This document shows, in pieces, positions 1-30,136 of a DNA stretch of 64,000 nucleotides. A model generated the notes under the pieces. The model worked only from the letters and a program-made list of their open reading frames with translations. It was not told the DNA's origin and did no database searches. The DNA lies in the NCBI GenBank assembly GCA_012026655.1, contig JAAILG010000612.1:1-64000 (forward strand), written 5' to 3'. The stretch's first letter is position 1. The number at the start of each line of letters is the position of its first letter. Both the position numbers and the translations under genes were made by a program. The DNA comes from Hydrolagus affinis. Lineage: Eukaryota.

Positions 1-2278
1 CATCAGGAAGGGTTACGTCAATTTGAGGTTTACTGAGGCTTACGTCTGCATCAAATTCACCTTTCACTTTGGGAAGACTTACGTCAAGATCCAATTTGGG
101 AGCTTTTCTGTCGGGTGCAGAAATTCCAAATTTGGGCATCTTCATATGGGGCATTTTGAATTTTCCTTTTGTTCCTCCAATATCTACATCAGGAGCCTCT
201 ATACTGACGTCCAATGACGGTACTTGTACATCAATCTCAGGTCCCTTGATATCTGCTTTTGCTTTGGGATGTGTAATTTCAATGTCTCGCTTTTTCAAAC
301 TGAGATCCACCTCAGGGCCTTTAAATTTCGGCACTGAAATCCCAAAATCTGGCATTTTTACTGTTGGCAACTTGAATTTGCCATCTGGGCCTTCAATGTT
401 TACTTCAGCTGAACCAATCTCCACATCCATCGTTGGTATGTTGATATCTACTTCTGGAACTTTGATATCAGCTGATACATCAGGCACTGTTACGTCAACT
501 TTGGCTTTTTGAAGGTTTACTTCTGTATCAATTTCACCTTTCAGCGTTTTACTTGCATCCACATCTGCTTTTGGCACTTCAGCCTCATGTTTCGATTTGG
601 GAACTTTGATATGAGGTGCAGAAAATCCAATTTTGAGGCCTTTATTGTGGGATAGTTTGTATTTTCCTTGTTTTCCACCTATCTTAGCATCTGAAAGCTC
701 CATATCTATTTCCAATGAAGGTATGTCTGTATGTATCTCAGGTCCCTTGATGCCTAGTTTTGATTTGGTAATTGTAGCATCACTGTTTGCCTTTTTCGAA
801 CCTATATCCTCTTCAGTGTCTTTGAACTTTGGCATTGATAACCCAAAATTTGGCATTTTTACCTTTGGCATTTTAAACTTTGCATCTAAACCTGCAATGT
901 CTTTTGCAGAACCAATCCCCACTTCCATTGTTGGTGGATGAATTTCAGTCTCTGGATCTTTGATATGCATTGATGCAGCAGGTAGAGTTACTTCAGCTTG
1001 GGATTTTGTGGGACTGAAGTGCTCATGTCTTATCTTGGGAAGCGTCTCTTTCACTGTGTCTATTTTCAAGGAAGCATCAGGATTTTGCATCTGAACAACC
1101 CCAATGCTGAATTGACCACCCACCGTGGATGTTTTTGTATCAACTTTGGAGGCATCATCTGATGGATAAGATATGTCAACGTTTTGAGCCATCACACCAA
1201 GTGTAGTCTTTTTAATTTTCTTCTCTTTCTTCAATTTGGTTTTCTTTTGTGCATCTTCAATTGTCCCAAAGGCATCTTTGGATAGAGATACCTGGCTGTG
1301 TACGTGGGATCCTTTCATTTCTGTTTCAATACTTTTAAGTGGAATGTTCATATCTGGCTGTTTCATGATTATATCTGTTTGAAATGGTTGTAATGTGACA
1401 TCAGTTGGCACATCGATGCTTTGGTGTTTCATTTGTACCGTATAGCCAAGTGTTGAAGAGCCTGCCTTGTCTTTGTGTTGACTCTGTGTTGTTGCCTGCT
1501 CTCTTGAAAAGTGCAGACTGTCTTTCAATTGTTCAGAAGCTTTAAGAGATACATTTTGTAATTTCTCACCCTCTGCCTTTGGTTGTGAAATTTCAATTGT
1601 TTTACTCTCATGGTATTGAGGTGGGAGTGAGTGTGATGTCGCTTCCTGTGGTAATGCAATGGCATCTTTGGGAGAAATTGTATCCGACATCAAAAATTTA
1701 GCAATTTTGAGCTTTGGTATTTTGTATTTTGCTTCTAAGTCCAGATTTGTTTCTTGTTTTTCATCTTTGGGCTTTTGCTCAGTCGGTTTGACTTCTGTCA
1801 TTATTTTGTCATCTTTAGTGTTCTGCAATGTTAAATCTACAATTATTTTTGAACTGCCTTGTTTTGCTGTTGAAAATTCATTGCTATCTGTGAAAACCAT
1901 TTGTGCCTCTTCAAGGACCTTTGTACTTGGACCAAGATGTGGAAATTTTATTTTTTTTCTTCGTTTCTTTACTTTCTGGGGTGATTCTGACAAATGTAAA
2001 TGCGATTCTAAATCTGTGCTTGTTACAGTGATTACCTGCTGATCACGATCTTCTGTTTCTGGTAAACTGTGAGATCTATCTAATTTGTCCATCTTTGTTT
2101 TTCTGCTATCTGGAAATGTAGAGCCAGAAAATGTTATATCTGATACCTTAGCAGATTTTGTCGTGCCCTGATTACCCATTTCCTGACGTTGTGTTTCTCT
2201 GTGTATTTTCATTTCTTCAGAATCAACCAGTTTTGTTTTTTGCTTATACAGGTCCGTAAAAATGTCTTCTTTTTCTCC
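1..2278 (-). CDS. AHNAK2: AHNAK2 giant exon, 5' part (continues beyond the window edge): post-PDZ linker, basic segments and the first AHNAK-type repeats
   Basis: Acceptor ttcttcatag|GGA at 2278 (phase 0). Frame reads GEKEDIFTDLYKQKTK...LDRSHSLPETEDRDQQVITVTSTDLESHL...KVKKRRKKIKFP..., resembling human AHNAK2 RSHSSSE..TSTDTE. It then enters AHNAK repeats (KFKMPKVKMPKFG, KGPEIDVQVPSLDV, KFKMPHMKMPKFGISAP, DVSLPKVKGE) and is still in frame at base 1. The ORF track lists no stop-terminated minus ORF here, consistent with an uninterrupted frame. Confidence 0.95.
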
Positions 2279-2878: not shown

Positions 2879-3242
2879 AAGGTATAATATTATGCCTAGT
2901 GGCTCAGACAATTGTGTAAAAAAATATTGTGGTAGAGCAATTCTGGGTTTGCCTCCCAGTGGGTACCTTCAGAGAGATTTATAAAATGAGCACCATGTTT
3001 TCAAAATTTGGAGTAGATGGGAAGAGGTAAGCAGGGTCTGGAGCTTACAAGATCATAAGAAAGATTCAGATGCAGAGATCCCTTTGATTTATTTGATCAC
3101 ATTTGTCCATTACCTTCTTCCTATTACAGCAATCAAGATGTTTCTTAAATGAGCTCAACAACAAAATACAACAAAATTACACTTGTATAGCGCCTTTCAC
3201 GTCAGGAGGACATTAAATGTTTCTCCTAGAAAGTAAACCTAC

Positions 3243-3424
3243 CACAATCGATTTAAAGTCTTTCACATCGACTTGCTCGGGTCCTATTGCAGCAGCTGCA
3301 GCACTCGGGATCTTTCGTTTCAGGCAGTATTGCATTTTGTATGGCTCGGAGTACTGCAAAATCTTGAGAGCGTCTTCAAATTTCATTTTATCAAAGTAAA
3401 CTGTTGCACTGACAAGTTGATCAC
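3243..3424 (-). CDS. AHNAK2: AHNAK2 exon, C-terminal half of the PDZ domain
   Basis: ttccttcag|GT GAT CAA...ATT GTG|gtaggt; 182 nt, phase 1 to 0. Encodes [40 protein letters not shown]..., matching the AHNAK2/periaxin PDZ motif [14 protein letters not shown]. Confidence 0.96.
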
Positions 3425-3609
3425 CTGAAGGAAAAATAAAAGAATTTGGTTAAGTTTTAAATGTTTACGATAACCTTCTTTAATTGAGATGTCATCAAGT
3501 ACAATAGGTATTTCATTTAATATAACAGTTTCAACTATAGCGAGGATGCATAAAAATAGCAAGGAGCGATTGTGGATTTGACTGTGAATGTGTCATGTGT
3601 TATGGTGGT

Positions 3610-3700
3610 TAGTTGGAGTTGAGATACAGATCAGTCATGATCTTATAGAATGGCAGAACAAGTACAAGGGGCTGAATGGCCTACTCCTGTTCCTATGTAC
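3610..3700 (+). mobile_element. CR1 3' end fragment
   Basis: agatcagtcatgatcttatagaatggcagaaca...aggggctgaatggcctactcctgttcctatgt, the same tail as the 60.5-61.5 kb CR1. Confidence 0.85.
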
Positions 3701-4033
3701 CAGCTAATTCCTTCCCTGATCGACGATTGATTGTCAATCACTTATTTCTGGTTCATCAACACTTTGAAACTAACTTGTTTCTCCTAACTTGGAAGGATTC
3801 AGTATAAATGTAAGAAGCTTGATGCTATGATGGGAGAGTGGATATTCTGGAGAAATGAGATCAGATGGGTTGAAGGGCCTTTTAAAATAATAATAATAAT
3901 TATTATAGGTCAGTGTTTATACTGCATTATTCATTTAAGAACTGAACTATAGGGGGAGCTCTCAGTCTTCCAGTTTTAAACTTTTAAGACTTTTTCCAAG
4001 TAAGCCAGGGGGAGGGAATATTTAATGTCTTAC

Positions 4034-4187
4034 CTTCTTTCATGTTTAATAGCTTTGCGGCAGGAGATTCTTTTTGCACATTCTTGATAAATATACCCTT
4101 ATCTTCTCCACCCTTCACACTGAATCCACTTGCACCTACTTCAGCTTCTGTTTTCAAAATCACTTCTATGTCGGTTTCCATTTCTCT
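4034..4187 (-). CDS. AHNAK2: AHNAK2 exon, N-terminal half of the PDZ domain
   Basis: ccttgcag|AGA GAA ATG...AAA GAA G|gtaaga; 154 nt. Encodes REMETDIEVILKTEAEVGASGFSVKGGEDKGIFIKNVQKESPAAKLLNMKEG (seen inside ORF 3984..4229), similar to human [45 protein letters not shown]. Confidence 0.96.
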
Positions 4188-4325
4188 CTGCAAGGAGGGT
4201 AAAAAGATTGTAAATTGTGCTTGATGCATGTAGCAGTATTTTTATGCTTTTCCATTTAATGCATTTGTTTCCAATCTATGTAAACGTTACAGAGCAATTA
4301 AAAGCAAGACGTTATTTAAACCCAC

Positions 4326-4448
4326 CGCTTCATGACTCATGCTTGCAGGTAACTGTTTCTTTGTTACGTTTTCTAACTCTCTTTTAAATTTTTCTTTTTT
4401 GTGATAAGTAAATTACTGAAATCCCTCATGCAGATTCTCCTCTGGCAC
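4326..4448 (-). other. AHNAK2: Candidate AHNAK2 cassette exon with an in-frame TAA and an internal start ATG (MSHEA)
   Basis: ttcagtag|GTG CCA GAG...CAG TAA...GCA AGC ATG AGT CAT GAA GCG|gtgggt; 123 nt, phase 0-0. TAA at 4415-4413. ATG at 4340 has A at -3 and is in frame with the PDZ exon. Position and MSHEA resemble human MSRPEA just before the PDZ. The acceptor pyrimidine tract is weak. Confidence 0.6.
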
Positions 4449-4628
4449 CTACTGAACAGAATTATGTAACTAGTTACACTGGGAGAATCTTCAAATCATT
4501 CATCAAAAAGCATTCCTAAATTGCAGTGTATGATGTTAGGATGCGCAAATTAAATAGTCTAAATTATGCCATATTTATAATGCACTTCATTTAATGCAAT
4601 GTTTGATGTTACAAGTATGGTTACATCT

Positions 4629-5030
4629 GTTTTACTTCCAAAACTATCCCACTACAATAAGCTACAGTATAACTCCAGTTACATTCCAATAAACATTTAA
4701 ACATTGGGTGGTCTATATTTGGGAGGTTTGGTCACAAGCTAAACCCTCAAGCATTATAAAGTTATGTATAAGTAGGATTTTATATGATTAATACATAACA
4801 AATACAGTAAACAACCACAAGGTCCTTGTTACTAACTTGAATTTAGTTGTATCTGTATTATCTGACGCCACAACTAAAATATGCCAATTTGTTAAACACT
4901 TAAGAGTTTAGCTTGCAATCAAACCTCCCAAAAATGGACCACACACGTTTAGAGGTTTATTGGAATTGGCTGCAATATAACAGTAGTTGTACTGTGCCTC
5001 ACTGTATTCAGCTAGTTTTAGAAGTAAAAT
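4629..5030. mobile_element. Foldback/MITE-like element with about 130-bp imperfect inverted arms
   Basis: Left arm ttttacttccaaaacta...ttccaataaacatttaaac...tggtctatatttgggaggtttggtcacaagctaaaccctcaag is the reverse complement of right arm cttaagagtttagcttgcaatcaaacctcccaaaaatggacca...gtttagaggtttattggaa...tagttttagaagtaaaa. Confidence 0.75.
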
Positions 5031-5689
5031 CAAATTGATGTCCTCAAAACTGAATTTGTACCATGCTTTTAACATGAGACCAATGCACTCTAGAAGTGTA
5101 TAGGGCTTAAACTAGGGAATTTTTTCATTTCATTTTCCATGTTTGTTTCAAGCGGAACAGTGCGCCTGATATACTTTATTTAATGCAGTAAATGGGATAG
5201 CGGCGTGACACGTTAGGAAATTATTTATTTGGGACCATAAAAGGTTTATAATTTGGATGTTTATCCAAATTGTAAAATATGACAGGTGCAAAGAGATCAA
5301 AGTGATTCTTGGTAGGTAACTGAATGGGTCACTGGTGCATGCACAACTTAGGCAATTGTACGATTCATTTAAAAAAAAGGACCCATCGAGATTGAATGTG
5401 TTTCTGAGACTGAAAATGTCCAGTTCATTCAGCCCTTTTAGTAACTAATTGACTGCTTATTGACCTGTTGTTGCTGAATCTGCCAATTGGACATGAGCAC
5501 AAACACATACATTACCATGCATCTGACTATAGCAGCTTCCAATTTTGCTGCTCAGACTTGATTATTGTCTGGCAGGCACTGACAATTGAGTTGTTATTTG
5601 CTAAACAATAATTTAGCACAGCAAAATTCCAATTACCATGCTGATAATTAATCAATTTTGTTATTACATGAACAATTTAATCTACTTAC

Positions 5690-5800
5690 CTTTTTGTCCC
5701 TGCCTCCGATTTCCTCTGTTAATGAGTAGTCATACACCGGTGAAGACCCTTGAGGCCTTGGTCTAACAGTTTCTACAAATTCAGTTGGCAGCTCACACAC
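5690..5800 (-). CDS. AHNAK2: AHNAK2 coding exon 3
   Basis: ctcgttctag|GTG TGT...AAA AAG|gtaagt; 111 nt, phase 0-0. Encodes VCELPTEFVETVRPRPQGSSPVYDYSLTEEIGGRDKK, containing the AHNAK2 motif RPRPQGSSPVY[DE]Y. Confidence 0.93.
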
Positions 5801-6316
5801 CTAGAACGAGGATATTGCAAATGTCACATCACAAAACCAAAAGGAAATCTTAAATTAAATAAAATGGCCTGGACATATTTTAGTTTCAATTGGGTATTTT
5901 TAATGAAAGACCATTTTGTTATCCAACCTACCATTGTTATCTAATGTTATCTGATTCAAATAATAATTATAAAAGTTTGTTTCATTTCCTCTGACTGCAC
6001 ACTAGCCATTTCTTATTACCGTATTAAGATCAAGGCCTTTTTAGGAAAAGATTAAACATTTCCCGCAATAAAAAGAATATTATTGGTTAGCATGTAATAT
6101 AAGAACTTTCATCCAAATTACTATTGTTTAAAGAAATGGGATACATTCAAATCATGTGTTTAATAATTTTTGAAAACACTAGTTTTTAAAATATTTACAC
6201 TCAGATATGCAGTGCCAATCTAAGATATATATAGCAGAGACTGTATCCTAGAACTATTTCATACTTGTTTCATACTTATAGTTGAATAGCTGATAATTTC
6301 ATAAATGATTACTTAC

Positions 6317-6369
6317 AGAATCATCATCTCCATCTTCTGCCTCGGTGTCCTTCAGACACTGGACAGATC
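6317..6369 (-). CDS. AHNAK2: AHNAK2 coding exon 2
   Basis: ttttttttccccctatag|GA TCT GTC...GAT TCT|gtaagt; 53 nt, phase 1 to 0. Encodes (G)SVQCLKDTEAEDGDDDS, comparable to human ...GAETEDDHS. Strong splice sites, and phases fit exons 1 and 3. Confidence 0.88.
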
Positions 6370-30081: not shown

Positions 30082-30136
30082 CACTGGCTGGAGGCCCTCG
30101 CCAGTTAGCAAAGGGCAGGTGAAAACAGTCGCACAT
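30082..30136 (-). CDS. AHNAK2: AHNAK2 coding exon 1 (translation start of the long isoform)
   Basis: gccaagATG TGC GAC TGT TTT CAC CTG CCC TTT GCT AAC TGG CGA GGG CCT CCA GCC AGT G|gtgggg encodes MCDCFHLPFANWRGPPAS(G), matching the human N-terminus MCDCFHMVLPTWPGTPGS. The phase-1 donor fits exon 2. A second phase-1 GT lies 3 nt earlier. Confidence 0.9.

What the first reader, a model, noticed from the sequence alone, without database searches (positions are those of the whole stretch)
4326..4448. Stop-plus-restart cassette exon: possible splicing switch between AHNAK2 N-termini and an 84-aa micropeptide
Seen in the sequence: a 123-nt phase 0-0 exon-like segment between exon 3 and the PDZ exon. 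It is open in the AHNAK2 frame except for one TAA (4415-4413), and 75 nt after the start of that TAA comes a good-context ATG (agcATGa, MSHEA) in frame with the PDZ. The acceptor is a CAG-TAG NAGNAG whose first AG would also put a stop in frame. Recalled: human AHNAK2 reads through the equivalent exon in its long isoform and starts a shorter isoform at MSRPE. Inference: here, skipping gives the full MCDCF-PDZ-repeat protein. Inclusion would cut the N-terminus off as an 84-aa product (MCDCFHLPFANW...RPRPQGSSPVYDY...EGFQ*) or uORF, with the giant protein starting at MSHEA, or would trigger NMD.
Basis: partly seen in the sequence, partly recalled or inferred. Interest (0 to 1): 0.7.

Follow-up and report, generated by a model that had tools for sequence, protein, structure and literature searches.

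The report
Skipped, stop-broken AHNAK2 exon in chimaeras
In this chimaera (ratfish-type fish) and close relatives, one optional exon of the giant scaffold gene AHNAK2, still coding in sharks and bony vertebrates, carries a real stop codon, and the gene likely makes its protein by skipping it, so this is likely ordinary exon decay rather than a new micro-protein switch.

Summary
In detail: 4448-4326 is AHNAK2 exon 4, with one in-frame TAA (4415-4413) and an in-frame Met (MSHEA). The stop is real: unchanged in organism A's contig and in a second sample's, and not among organism B's listed changes. The exon is old and coding elsewhere: open in sharks (18 of 36 aligned residues match catshark) and annotated both in and out in three teleosts. 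RNA of organism B has zero depth on it. Layout fits need 3-4 reads joining exon 3 to exon 5 (deduced from depth, one sample). Seven of 8 Callorhinchus milii models also join exon 3 to exon 5; the eighth starts at a Met in exon 5. Best reading: an ancestral cassette exon made dispensable in chimaeras, because the long form skips it and exon 5 has its own Met, then disabled. No inclusion or 84-aa peptide was seen. A start-exon role in short transcripts or a regulated poison exon is not excluded. The scan had no earlier AHNAK2 note, only a similar decayed DACH2 exon. Interest is low.

The parts
30082..30136 (-). AHNAK2 coding exon 1 (MCDCF N-terminus, 55 nt)
   Evidence: 17/18 residues identical to C. 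milii X1
6317..6369 (-). exon 2 (53 nt)
   Evidence: tblastn with shark proteins; RNA depth in X14
5690..5800 (-). exon 3 (111 nt, RPRPQGSSP motif), donor AAG|GTAAGT 9/9
   Evidence: RNA depth
4326..4448 (-). exon 4 remnant: orthologue of the cassette exon, weakest acceptor of exons 2-6 (10 of 17 pyrimidines), donor GCG|GTGGGT 6/9
   Evidence: zero RNA depth
4413..4415 (-). in-frame TAA, 87 nt before the exon 4 donor
   Evidence: unchanged in X2 and X9
4338..4340 (-). in-frame ATG (MSHEA), homologous to the conserved exon-4 Met
4449..4454 (-). CAG-TAG tandem acceptor; the first AG would add an in-frame TAG
4034..4187 (-). exon 5, first half of the PDZ domain; carries an in-frame ATG (METD) at 4181-4179
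   Evidence: Pfam PDZ above cut-off; best PDB match human AHNAK2 PDZ 4cn0
3243..3424 (-). exon 6, second half of the PDZ domain (182 nt)
2..2278 (-). start of the giant repeat exon 7, open for 759 codons to the contig end

Best explanation
The segment is AHNAK2 exon 4 with a real stop codon; chimaeras likely make the long protein by splicing exon 3 straight to exon 5, and the exon is likely a dispensable remnant whose stop has no selected role. Steps: (1) shown in gene models: exon 4 is coding in sharks and bony vertebrates and is annotated both in and out in three teleosts. (2) Shown thinly: chimaera RNA skips it, and C. milii models skip it. (3) Shown: the PDZ domain starts in exon 5, and exon 5 in chimaeras has its own in-frame Met. 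(4) Inferred: with the long form skipping and a short form able to start at the exon-5 Met, the exon lost its constraint and picked up a stop. (5) Inferred: any stray inclusion would be removed by nonsense-mediated decay.
For: TAA shared with organism A and a second sample. RNA depth on exons 2, 3 and 5 and zero on 4188-4727 and 4848-5687. All 380 fitting layouts for X15 need exactly 1 read crossing 5690>4187; X14 needs 2-3. C. milii X1 and X3-X8 (7 of 8 RefSeq isoforms seen) join exon 3 to exon 5, and X2 starts at the exon-5 Met. Salminus, Astyanax and Ictalurus each have an X1 with the exon and an X2 without it. Exon 4 has the weakest acceptor of exons 2-6, and no in-frame AG after the stop has a pyrimidine tract (3-5 of 17). 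Of 111 exon-4-containing models, 90 have the exon-4 Met; 18 of the 21 without it have a Met further on at the exon-5 position, against 38 of the 90 with it (kin share labels, so few independent events).
Against: The RNA is 3-4 reads from one sample of unknown tissue, 27-30% of each run read. The tool printed no joint (it needs 3 reads); the junction is deduced from binned depth. The 95% bound on inclusion is still 0.31-0.41, and one X14 read could overhang 4-7 nt into exon 4 if short overhangs are clipped. NMD would hide inclusion. Acceptor, donor and ATG are all intact, and the peptide is still 41-44% identical to two sharks, above the 24-27% of a coding linker in exon 7. That means either a young stop or remaining constraint. 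C. milii genomic exon 4 could not be read, and the C. milii rows are predicted models.
Confidence: 0.52

Rival explanations
1. The long form skips the exon, but it is kept as 5' UTR plus start codon (MSHEA) of a short isoform that would come from an internal promoter. The stop is harmless there because it lies upstream of the start.
For: The exon-4 Met is in 90 of 111 exon-4-containing models. 22 of 217 proteins begin at that position (about 4 of them look like paralogues or other starts), among them Rhincodon, Heptranchias, Hemiscyllium, Microcaecilia and Ictalurus X4. ATG, donor and frame are intact in the window. Human isoform 3 is 605 kDa against 616 kDa (PMC8833689, passages).
Against: No read on the exon. 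The one short C. milii model starts at the exon-5 Met, not at an exon-4 Met. No 500-nt window between 4200 and 15500 reached 12 CpG (a weak test). Models that start late may simply be truncated.
Confidence: 0.28
2. A regulated poison exon: the former coding cassette would be included on cue to send the long mRNA to nonsense-mediated decay.
For: The stop lies 87 nt before the next junction, past the 50-nt rule (rule as stated in PMC3176834 and PMC10187673, passages). Both tandem acceptors give a stop. NMD would explain the missing reads. C. milii X2 could be an inclusion transcript annotated from the next Met (not checkable here).
Against: The stop is not conserved outside chimaeras. Exon 4 shows 1 change in 123 nt against 24 in 1412 intronic nt in organism A, P = 0.38, so no raised conservation is seen, with little power. 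No inclusion was observed.
Confidence: 0.13
3. One reading: inclusion would give a stable 84-aa peptide with the Cys-rich N-terminus, and the giant protein would restart at MSHEA.
For: The arithmetic works, the N-terminal 73 residues are highly conserved (67/73 to C. milii), and the Met is in adequate context.
Against: No inclusion read. No protein of 130 aa or less with the exon-3 motif among 215 fetched, and a search of 73-2000 aa with exon 3 gave 3 hits, all 267 aa or longer (weak, 8 candidates). Reinitiation favours small uORFs and does not protect from NMD (PMC10187673, passages; it tested 9 and 561 codons). Five out-of-frame ATGs lie between the first ATG and MSHEA. That 73 residues are conserved is explained by the long protein.
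Confidence: 0.05
4. The TAA is an assembly error or a rare allele, and the exon is a normal coding cassette.
For: The frame is otherwise open and as close to sharks as sharks are to each other (15-18 against 17-21 identities).
Against: The same letters stand in X2 (organism A) and X9; X7's listed changes miss the stop.
Confidence: 0.01

Closest known systems
Callorhinchus milii AHNAK2 RefSeq models XP_007886406.1-XP_007886414.1 (X1-X8)
   Same: Exons 1-3, 5 and 6 are 82-95% identical to the window. Seven of 8 join exon 3 to exon 5 exactly as deduced here; X2 starts at the exon-5 Met.
AHNAK2 exon-4 cassette in otophysan teleost models (Salminus XP_072534045.1/46.1, Astyanax XP_015458859.3/XP_049337500.1, Ictalurus XP_047010162.2/63.2)
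   Same: Same exon position between the RPRPQGSSP exon and the PDZ exon, same Met near its end, annotated both in and out.
   Different: There the exon is open (38-39 aa), so inclusion gives a longer protein; here inclusion would stop at codon 85.
Elasmobranch AHNAK2 (Scyliorhinus torazame GCB65793.1, Chiloscyllium plagiosum XP_043553525.1, unnamed Logan P0001)
   Same: Clear homology over the exon, including the Met.
   Different: Open and 32-37 aa by my cut; the window's copy is 41 codons with a stop. Three other shark models start at the exon-4 Met.
Human AHNAK2 isoforms 1 and 3; AHNAK/periaxin family
   Same: At least seven exons, six small and one giant, with an N-terminal PDZ (PMC10682155, passages); a form about 11 kDa shorter exists (PMC8833689, passages). 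PDZ matches 4cn0 and 4cmz.
   Different: The primate exon is read through (P0008). How the human short form arises was not found in the passages read.
Conserved poison (NMD cassette) exons such as those of RBM39
   Same: Cassette with a premature stop more than 50 nt before a junction.
   Different: Those are often highly conserved with their flanks and have transcript support (PMC3176834, passages, which also says conservation is not universal). Here the stop is lineage-limited and inclusion unseen.

Membership tests
AHNAK2 orthologue | PDZ domain closest to AHNAK2 rather than periaxin | tested here: met
   4cn0 E 2.4e-13 against 4cmz E 4.1e-9; Pfam PDZ above cut-off; a separate periaxin-like locus exists in G000
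AHNAK2 orthologue | MCDCF N-terminus and RPRPQGSSP exon before the PDZ, then a giant repeat exon | tested here: met
   67/73 to C. milii X1; 759 open codons to the contig end
AHNAK2 orthologue | Conserved neighbouring genes | not tested
   not examined
Alternatively spliced cassette exon | Skipped form exists | tested here: met
   3-4 reads deduced from depth; C. milii models
Alternatively spliced cassette exon | Included form exists in the same lineage | tested here: inconclusive
   zero depth on the exon in X14 and X15, but the 95% bound on inclusion is 0.31-0.41; met only in teleost models
Regulated poison exon (AS-NMD) | Premature stop more than 50 nt before a downstream junction | tested here: met
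   87 nt
Regulated poison exon (AS-NMD) | Stop conserved across distant lineages | tested here: not met
   open in sharks and bony vertebrates; C. milii DNA not available
Regulated poison exon (AS-NMD) | Raised nucleotide conservation of the exon | tested here: inconclusive
   1/123 against 24/1412, P = 0.38; flanks not scored separately
Regulated poison exon (AS-NMD) | Inclusion rises when NMD is blocked | not testable with these tools
   needs an experiment
uORF with reinitiation | Short uORF | tested here: not met
   84 codons against a mammalian mean of 16 (PMC10187673)
Micropeptide | A short product on record, or translation evidence | tested here: inconclusive
   none among 215 proteins or; no ribosome or mass-spectrometry data available
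Decayed (pseudo-) exon | Homology to a coding exon plus a disabling change | tested here: met
Decayed (pseudo-) exon | Neutral rate of change, splice signals eroding | tested here: inconclusive
   rate not different from introns, little power; splice sites and ATG still intact

The most novel reading that the evidence does not exclude
Chimaeras turned an ancient coding cassette exon of AHNAK2 into a regulated switch: tissue-specific inclusion removes the long, Cys-rich-N-terminus form by NMD or cuts it to an 84-aa peptide, while the short PDZ-giant form starts at MSHEA or METD.
Probability: 0.15. Interest if true: 0.5.

Novelty: new member of a known kind. Interest (0 to 1): 0.2.

Why it matters
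It matters little as biology: lineage-limited loss of coding in an optional exon is ordinary. It is useful for annotation, since the chimaera gene is intact and should be modelled 3>5, not as a pseudogene or a split gene. The side result is of more use. An in-frame Met just ahead of the PDZ is kept in 108 of 111 vertebrate models, in exon 4 or exon 5, which points to an old long/short N-terminus pair in AHNAK2 that could be tested in human or zebrafish cells. If inclusion proved regulated, it would be a dated case of a coding exon becoming a poison exon.

Tried and rejected
Assembly error: rejected. A second AHNAK2 copy with an open exon: none found; the DNA search gave one match and the other PDZ exon checked is periaxin-like (one weaker match on C30793 was not examined). 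Rescue by an acceptor after the stop: three in-frame AGs exist, with 3-5 of 17 pyrimidines, rejected as unlikely. No RNA holder was listed by the run search; the two RNA runs came in as additions from organism B's study. X11 did not cover the exon, and X1's longest listed pieces did not span the stop. Seven of the 15 listed runs were laid (X1, X2, X7, X9, X11, X14, X15). A full enumeration of X14 layouts outgrew its limit and was replaced by an integer program. Searches used exon 6 one base off (3423-3242 for 3424-3243), outside the fitted bins. Coelacanth: both models seen start at an exon-5 Met and say nothing on exon 4. Literature: searches listed no title or abstract opening on AHNAK2 exon-4 splicing, its acylation, or chimaera AHNAK2 (only the top 8-30 rows of each were seen; none of the 15 listed of 1,431 held 'ahnak2'). 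De Morree 2012 is not held and was seen only as cited in PMC10682155. No supplements were opened; splicing tables there could bear on the human exon.

Full report
Setting. The window is the first 64 kb of contig C612 of a 1.11-Gb genome. The gene on the minus strand is AHNAK2: exon 5 matches the human AHNAK2 PDZ structure 4cn0 better than periaxin, and exons 1-3, 5 and 6 are 82-95% identical to Callorhinchus milii and 65-89% to two sharks where alignable. The linker of the giant exon is 76% identical to C. milii, so the species is a chimaera other than C. milii (inferred). The exons are 30136-30082, 6369-6317, 5800-5690, 4448-4326, 4187-4034, 3424-3243 and 2278 to the contig end.

Observation. 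All points are confirmed: 123 nt, phase 0-0, one TAA at 4415-4413, an in-frame ATG 75 nt later, and a CAG-TAG acceptor whose first AG gives a stop. Inclusion would end the frame at codon 85, 87 nt before the next junction. Skipping gives 944 open codons to the contig end. Exon 5 has a second in-frame ATG in strong context.

Is the stop real? Yes. Organism A's contig spans 4008-5807 in one piece at depth 28.2 with 27 substitutions. All are listed; one lies in the exon (4440, Glu to Asp) and none at the stop. An unlabelled sample's contig over 4258-4476 has none. Organism B's contig at depth 41.9 has 7, of which 6 are listed (4437 is silent) and none is at the stop. These relatives are close (27 changes in 1800 nt for organism A), so this does not date the stop deeply. 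The DNA search found one copy in the genome, and the other PDZ exon checked is periaxin-like.

What the exon is. It is an old coding exon. Three elasmobranch proteins carry it open, with 18/36, 17/36 and 15/32 identities to the window's copy and 0 of 500 shuffles reaching each score; among themselves they share 17-21. Of 215 proteins fetched, 121 could be measured between the exon-3 motif and the PDZ. 98 had the full exon, 11 a shorter form (mostly birds) and 12 a skip-length join. The skip-length set includes seven C. milii isoforms and one X2 each of Salminus, Astyanax and Ictalurus, whose X1 models include the exon, open. So the exon is optional in teleost models, and C. milii models never use it: X1 and X3-X8 join exon 3 to exon 5, and X2 starts at the exon-5 Met. 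These are predicted models. That RefSeq isoforms rest on RNA is my recollection and was not checked.

RNA. Two raw-read runs of one sample of organism B were laid, with 27% and 30% of each read. Depth falls on exons 2, 3 and 5 and is zero in the bin 4312-4468 in both. At 60-nt bins X14 has depth only on 4008-4187 and 5688-5807, apart from one repeat read. The tool printed no joint because it needs 3 reads. Fitting 101-nt reads from the skip or inclusion form to the bins, all 380 fitting layouts for X15 hold exactly one read across 5690>4187, and X14 needs 2-3. This is 3-4 skip reads and none on the exon body. The 95% bound on inclusion is 0.31-0.41 if reads are independent and both forms equally stable, which they may not be. 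One X14 read could instead overhang 4-7 nt into exon 4 if short overhangs are clipped. The data show skipping; they do not show that inclusion is absent.

Why the stop is tolerated (inferred). The PDZ match begins at residue 7 of exon 5, so skipping loses only linker. An internal Met just before the PDZ looks conserved: 108 of 111 exon-4-containing models have one, 90 at the exon-4 position, and 18 of the other 21 at the exon-5 position (birds, marsupials and a few others, so few independent events). Twenty-two of 217 proteins begin at the exon-4 position, among them three sharks and Ictalurus X4; Ictalurus X3 begins at the exon-5 Met. A human form about 11 kDa shorter is reported (PMC8833689, passages), matching the Met at residue 101 of the monkey protein. 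Chimaeras have a Met in exon 5, where the four named shark models seen mostly do not (Rhincodon has one at its third codon). Exon 4 was therefore likely needed neither by the long form nor by a short form. Its acceptor is the weakest of exons 2-6, and no usable in-frame acceptor follows the stop.

Against this reading. Acceptor, donor and ATG are intact, and the peptide is still 41-44% identical to two sharks, more than a coding linker of exon 7 (24-27%). The stretch between the stop and the Met is also similar, which no present use would explain. The stop may thus be young relative to the roughly 400-million-year split from sharks. Chimaera and Callorhinchus split about 187 million years ago (PMC12952989, passages), and whether C. 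milii shares the stop could not be read. Change in the exon against introns in organism A is 1/123 against 24/1412 (P = 0.38), which tells nothing either way.

Rivals. Use as the start exon of a short isoform from an internal promoter (0.28) is compatible with skipping and is the main alternative. A regulated poison exon (0.13) meets the 50-nt rule but lacks deep conservation of the stop and any observed inclusion. The 84-aa peptide with restart (0.05) has no record, and reinitiation favours small uORFs and does not prevent NMD (PMC10187673, passages). An error is refuted (0.01). The first two readings share the core claim, a real stop in an exon that the long form skips, at about 0.8.

Known and new. 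The skip form is already in C. milii RefSeq models. My searches (top rows only) listed nothing on this exon; de Morree 2012 was not available. The scan's own notes had nothing near this place and no AHNAK2 entry, only a decayed DACH2 cassette exon in sharks and a poison exon in a chimaera splicing-factor gene (unchecked). Verdict: a new instance of an ordinary thing, interest 0.2.

Noticed in passing
proteins P0034, P0084, P0085: Models of Rhincodon, Heptranchias and Hemiscyllium all start at the exon-4 Met. This could be an internal promoter, truncated models, or parallel stops upstream in these sharks.
   Followed up: no
window 2072 and 1918 (exon 7), run X7: Organism B's DNA contig shows a 4-nt insertion behind 2072 (a frameshift, 24 nt from the contig's end) and a 6-nt insertion behind 1918; RNA of the same organism label shows neither (0 of 2 and 0 of 1 reads). 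An allele or a contig artefact.
   Followed up: no
window 5690, run X2: Organism A changes the last base of exon 3 (donor position -1, G to T on the coding strand).
   Followed up: no
window 30136-30082: The MCDC(F/L)H start is kept from chimaera to monkey. The two cysteines might be a lipid anchor that the short form lacks (recalled analogy, untested; one search listed no paper on it).
   Followed up: partly
G000:C179720:534-701 (L004): Periaxin-like PDZ exon, closer to four shark proteins named AHNAK-like than to AHNAK2.
   Followed up: partly
window 4630-5029 and about 5140-5370: Intron 3 holds an inverted self-match (67% over 400 nt) and short dispersed repeats with many copies in the genome, possibly MITE-like.
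   Followed up: no
window 3168-3213 and about 3530-3840: Very high-copy repeats in introns 6 and 5, also abundant in the RNA reads.
   Followed up: no
bird proteins such as P0009, P0038-P0046: Birds have a shortened segment (66 against 80-93 residues between motifs) without the exon-4 Met, a possible separate erosion of the same exon.
   Followed up: partly
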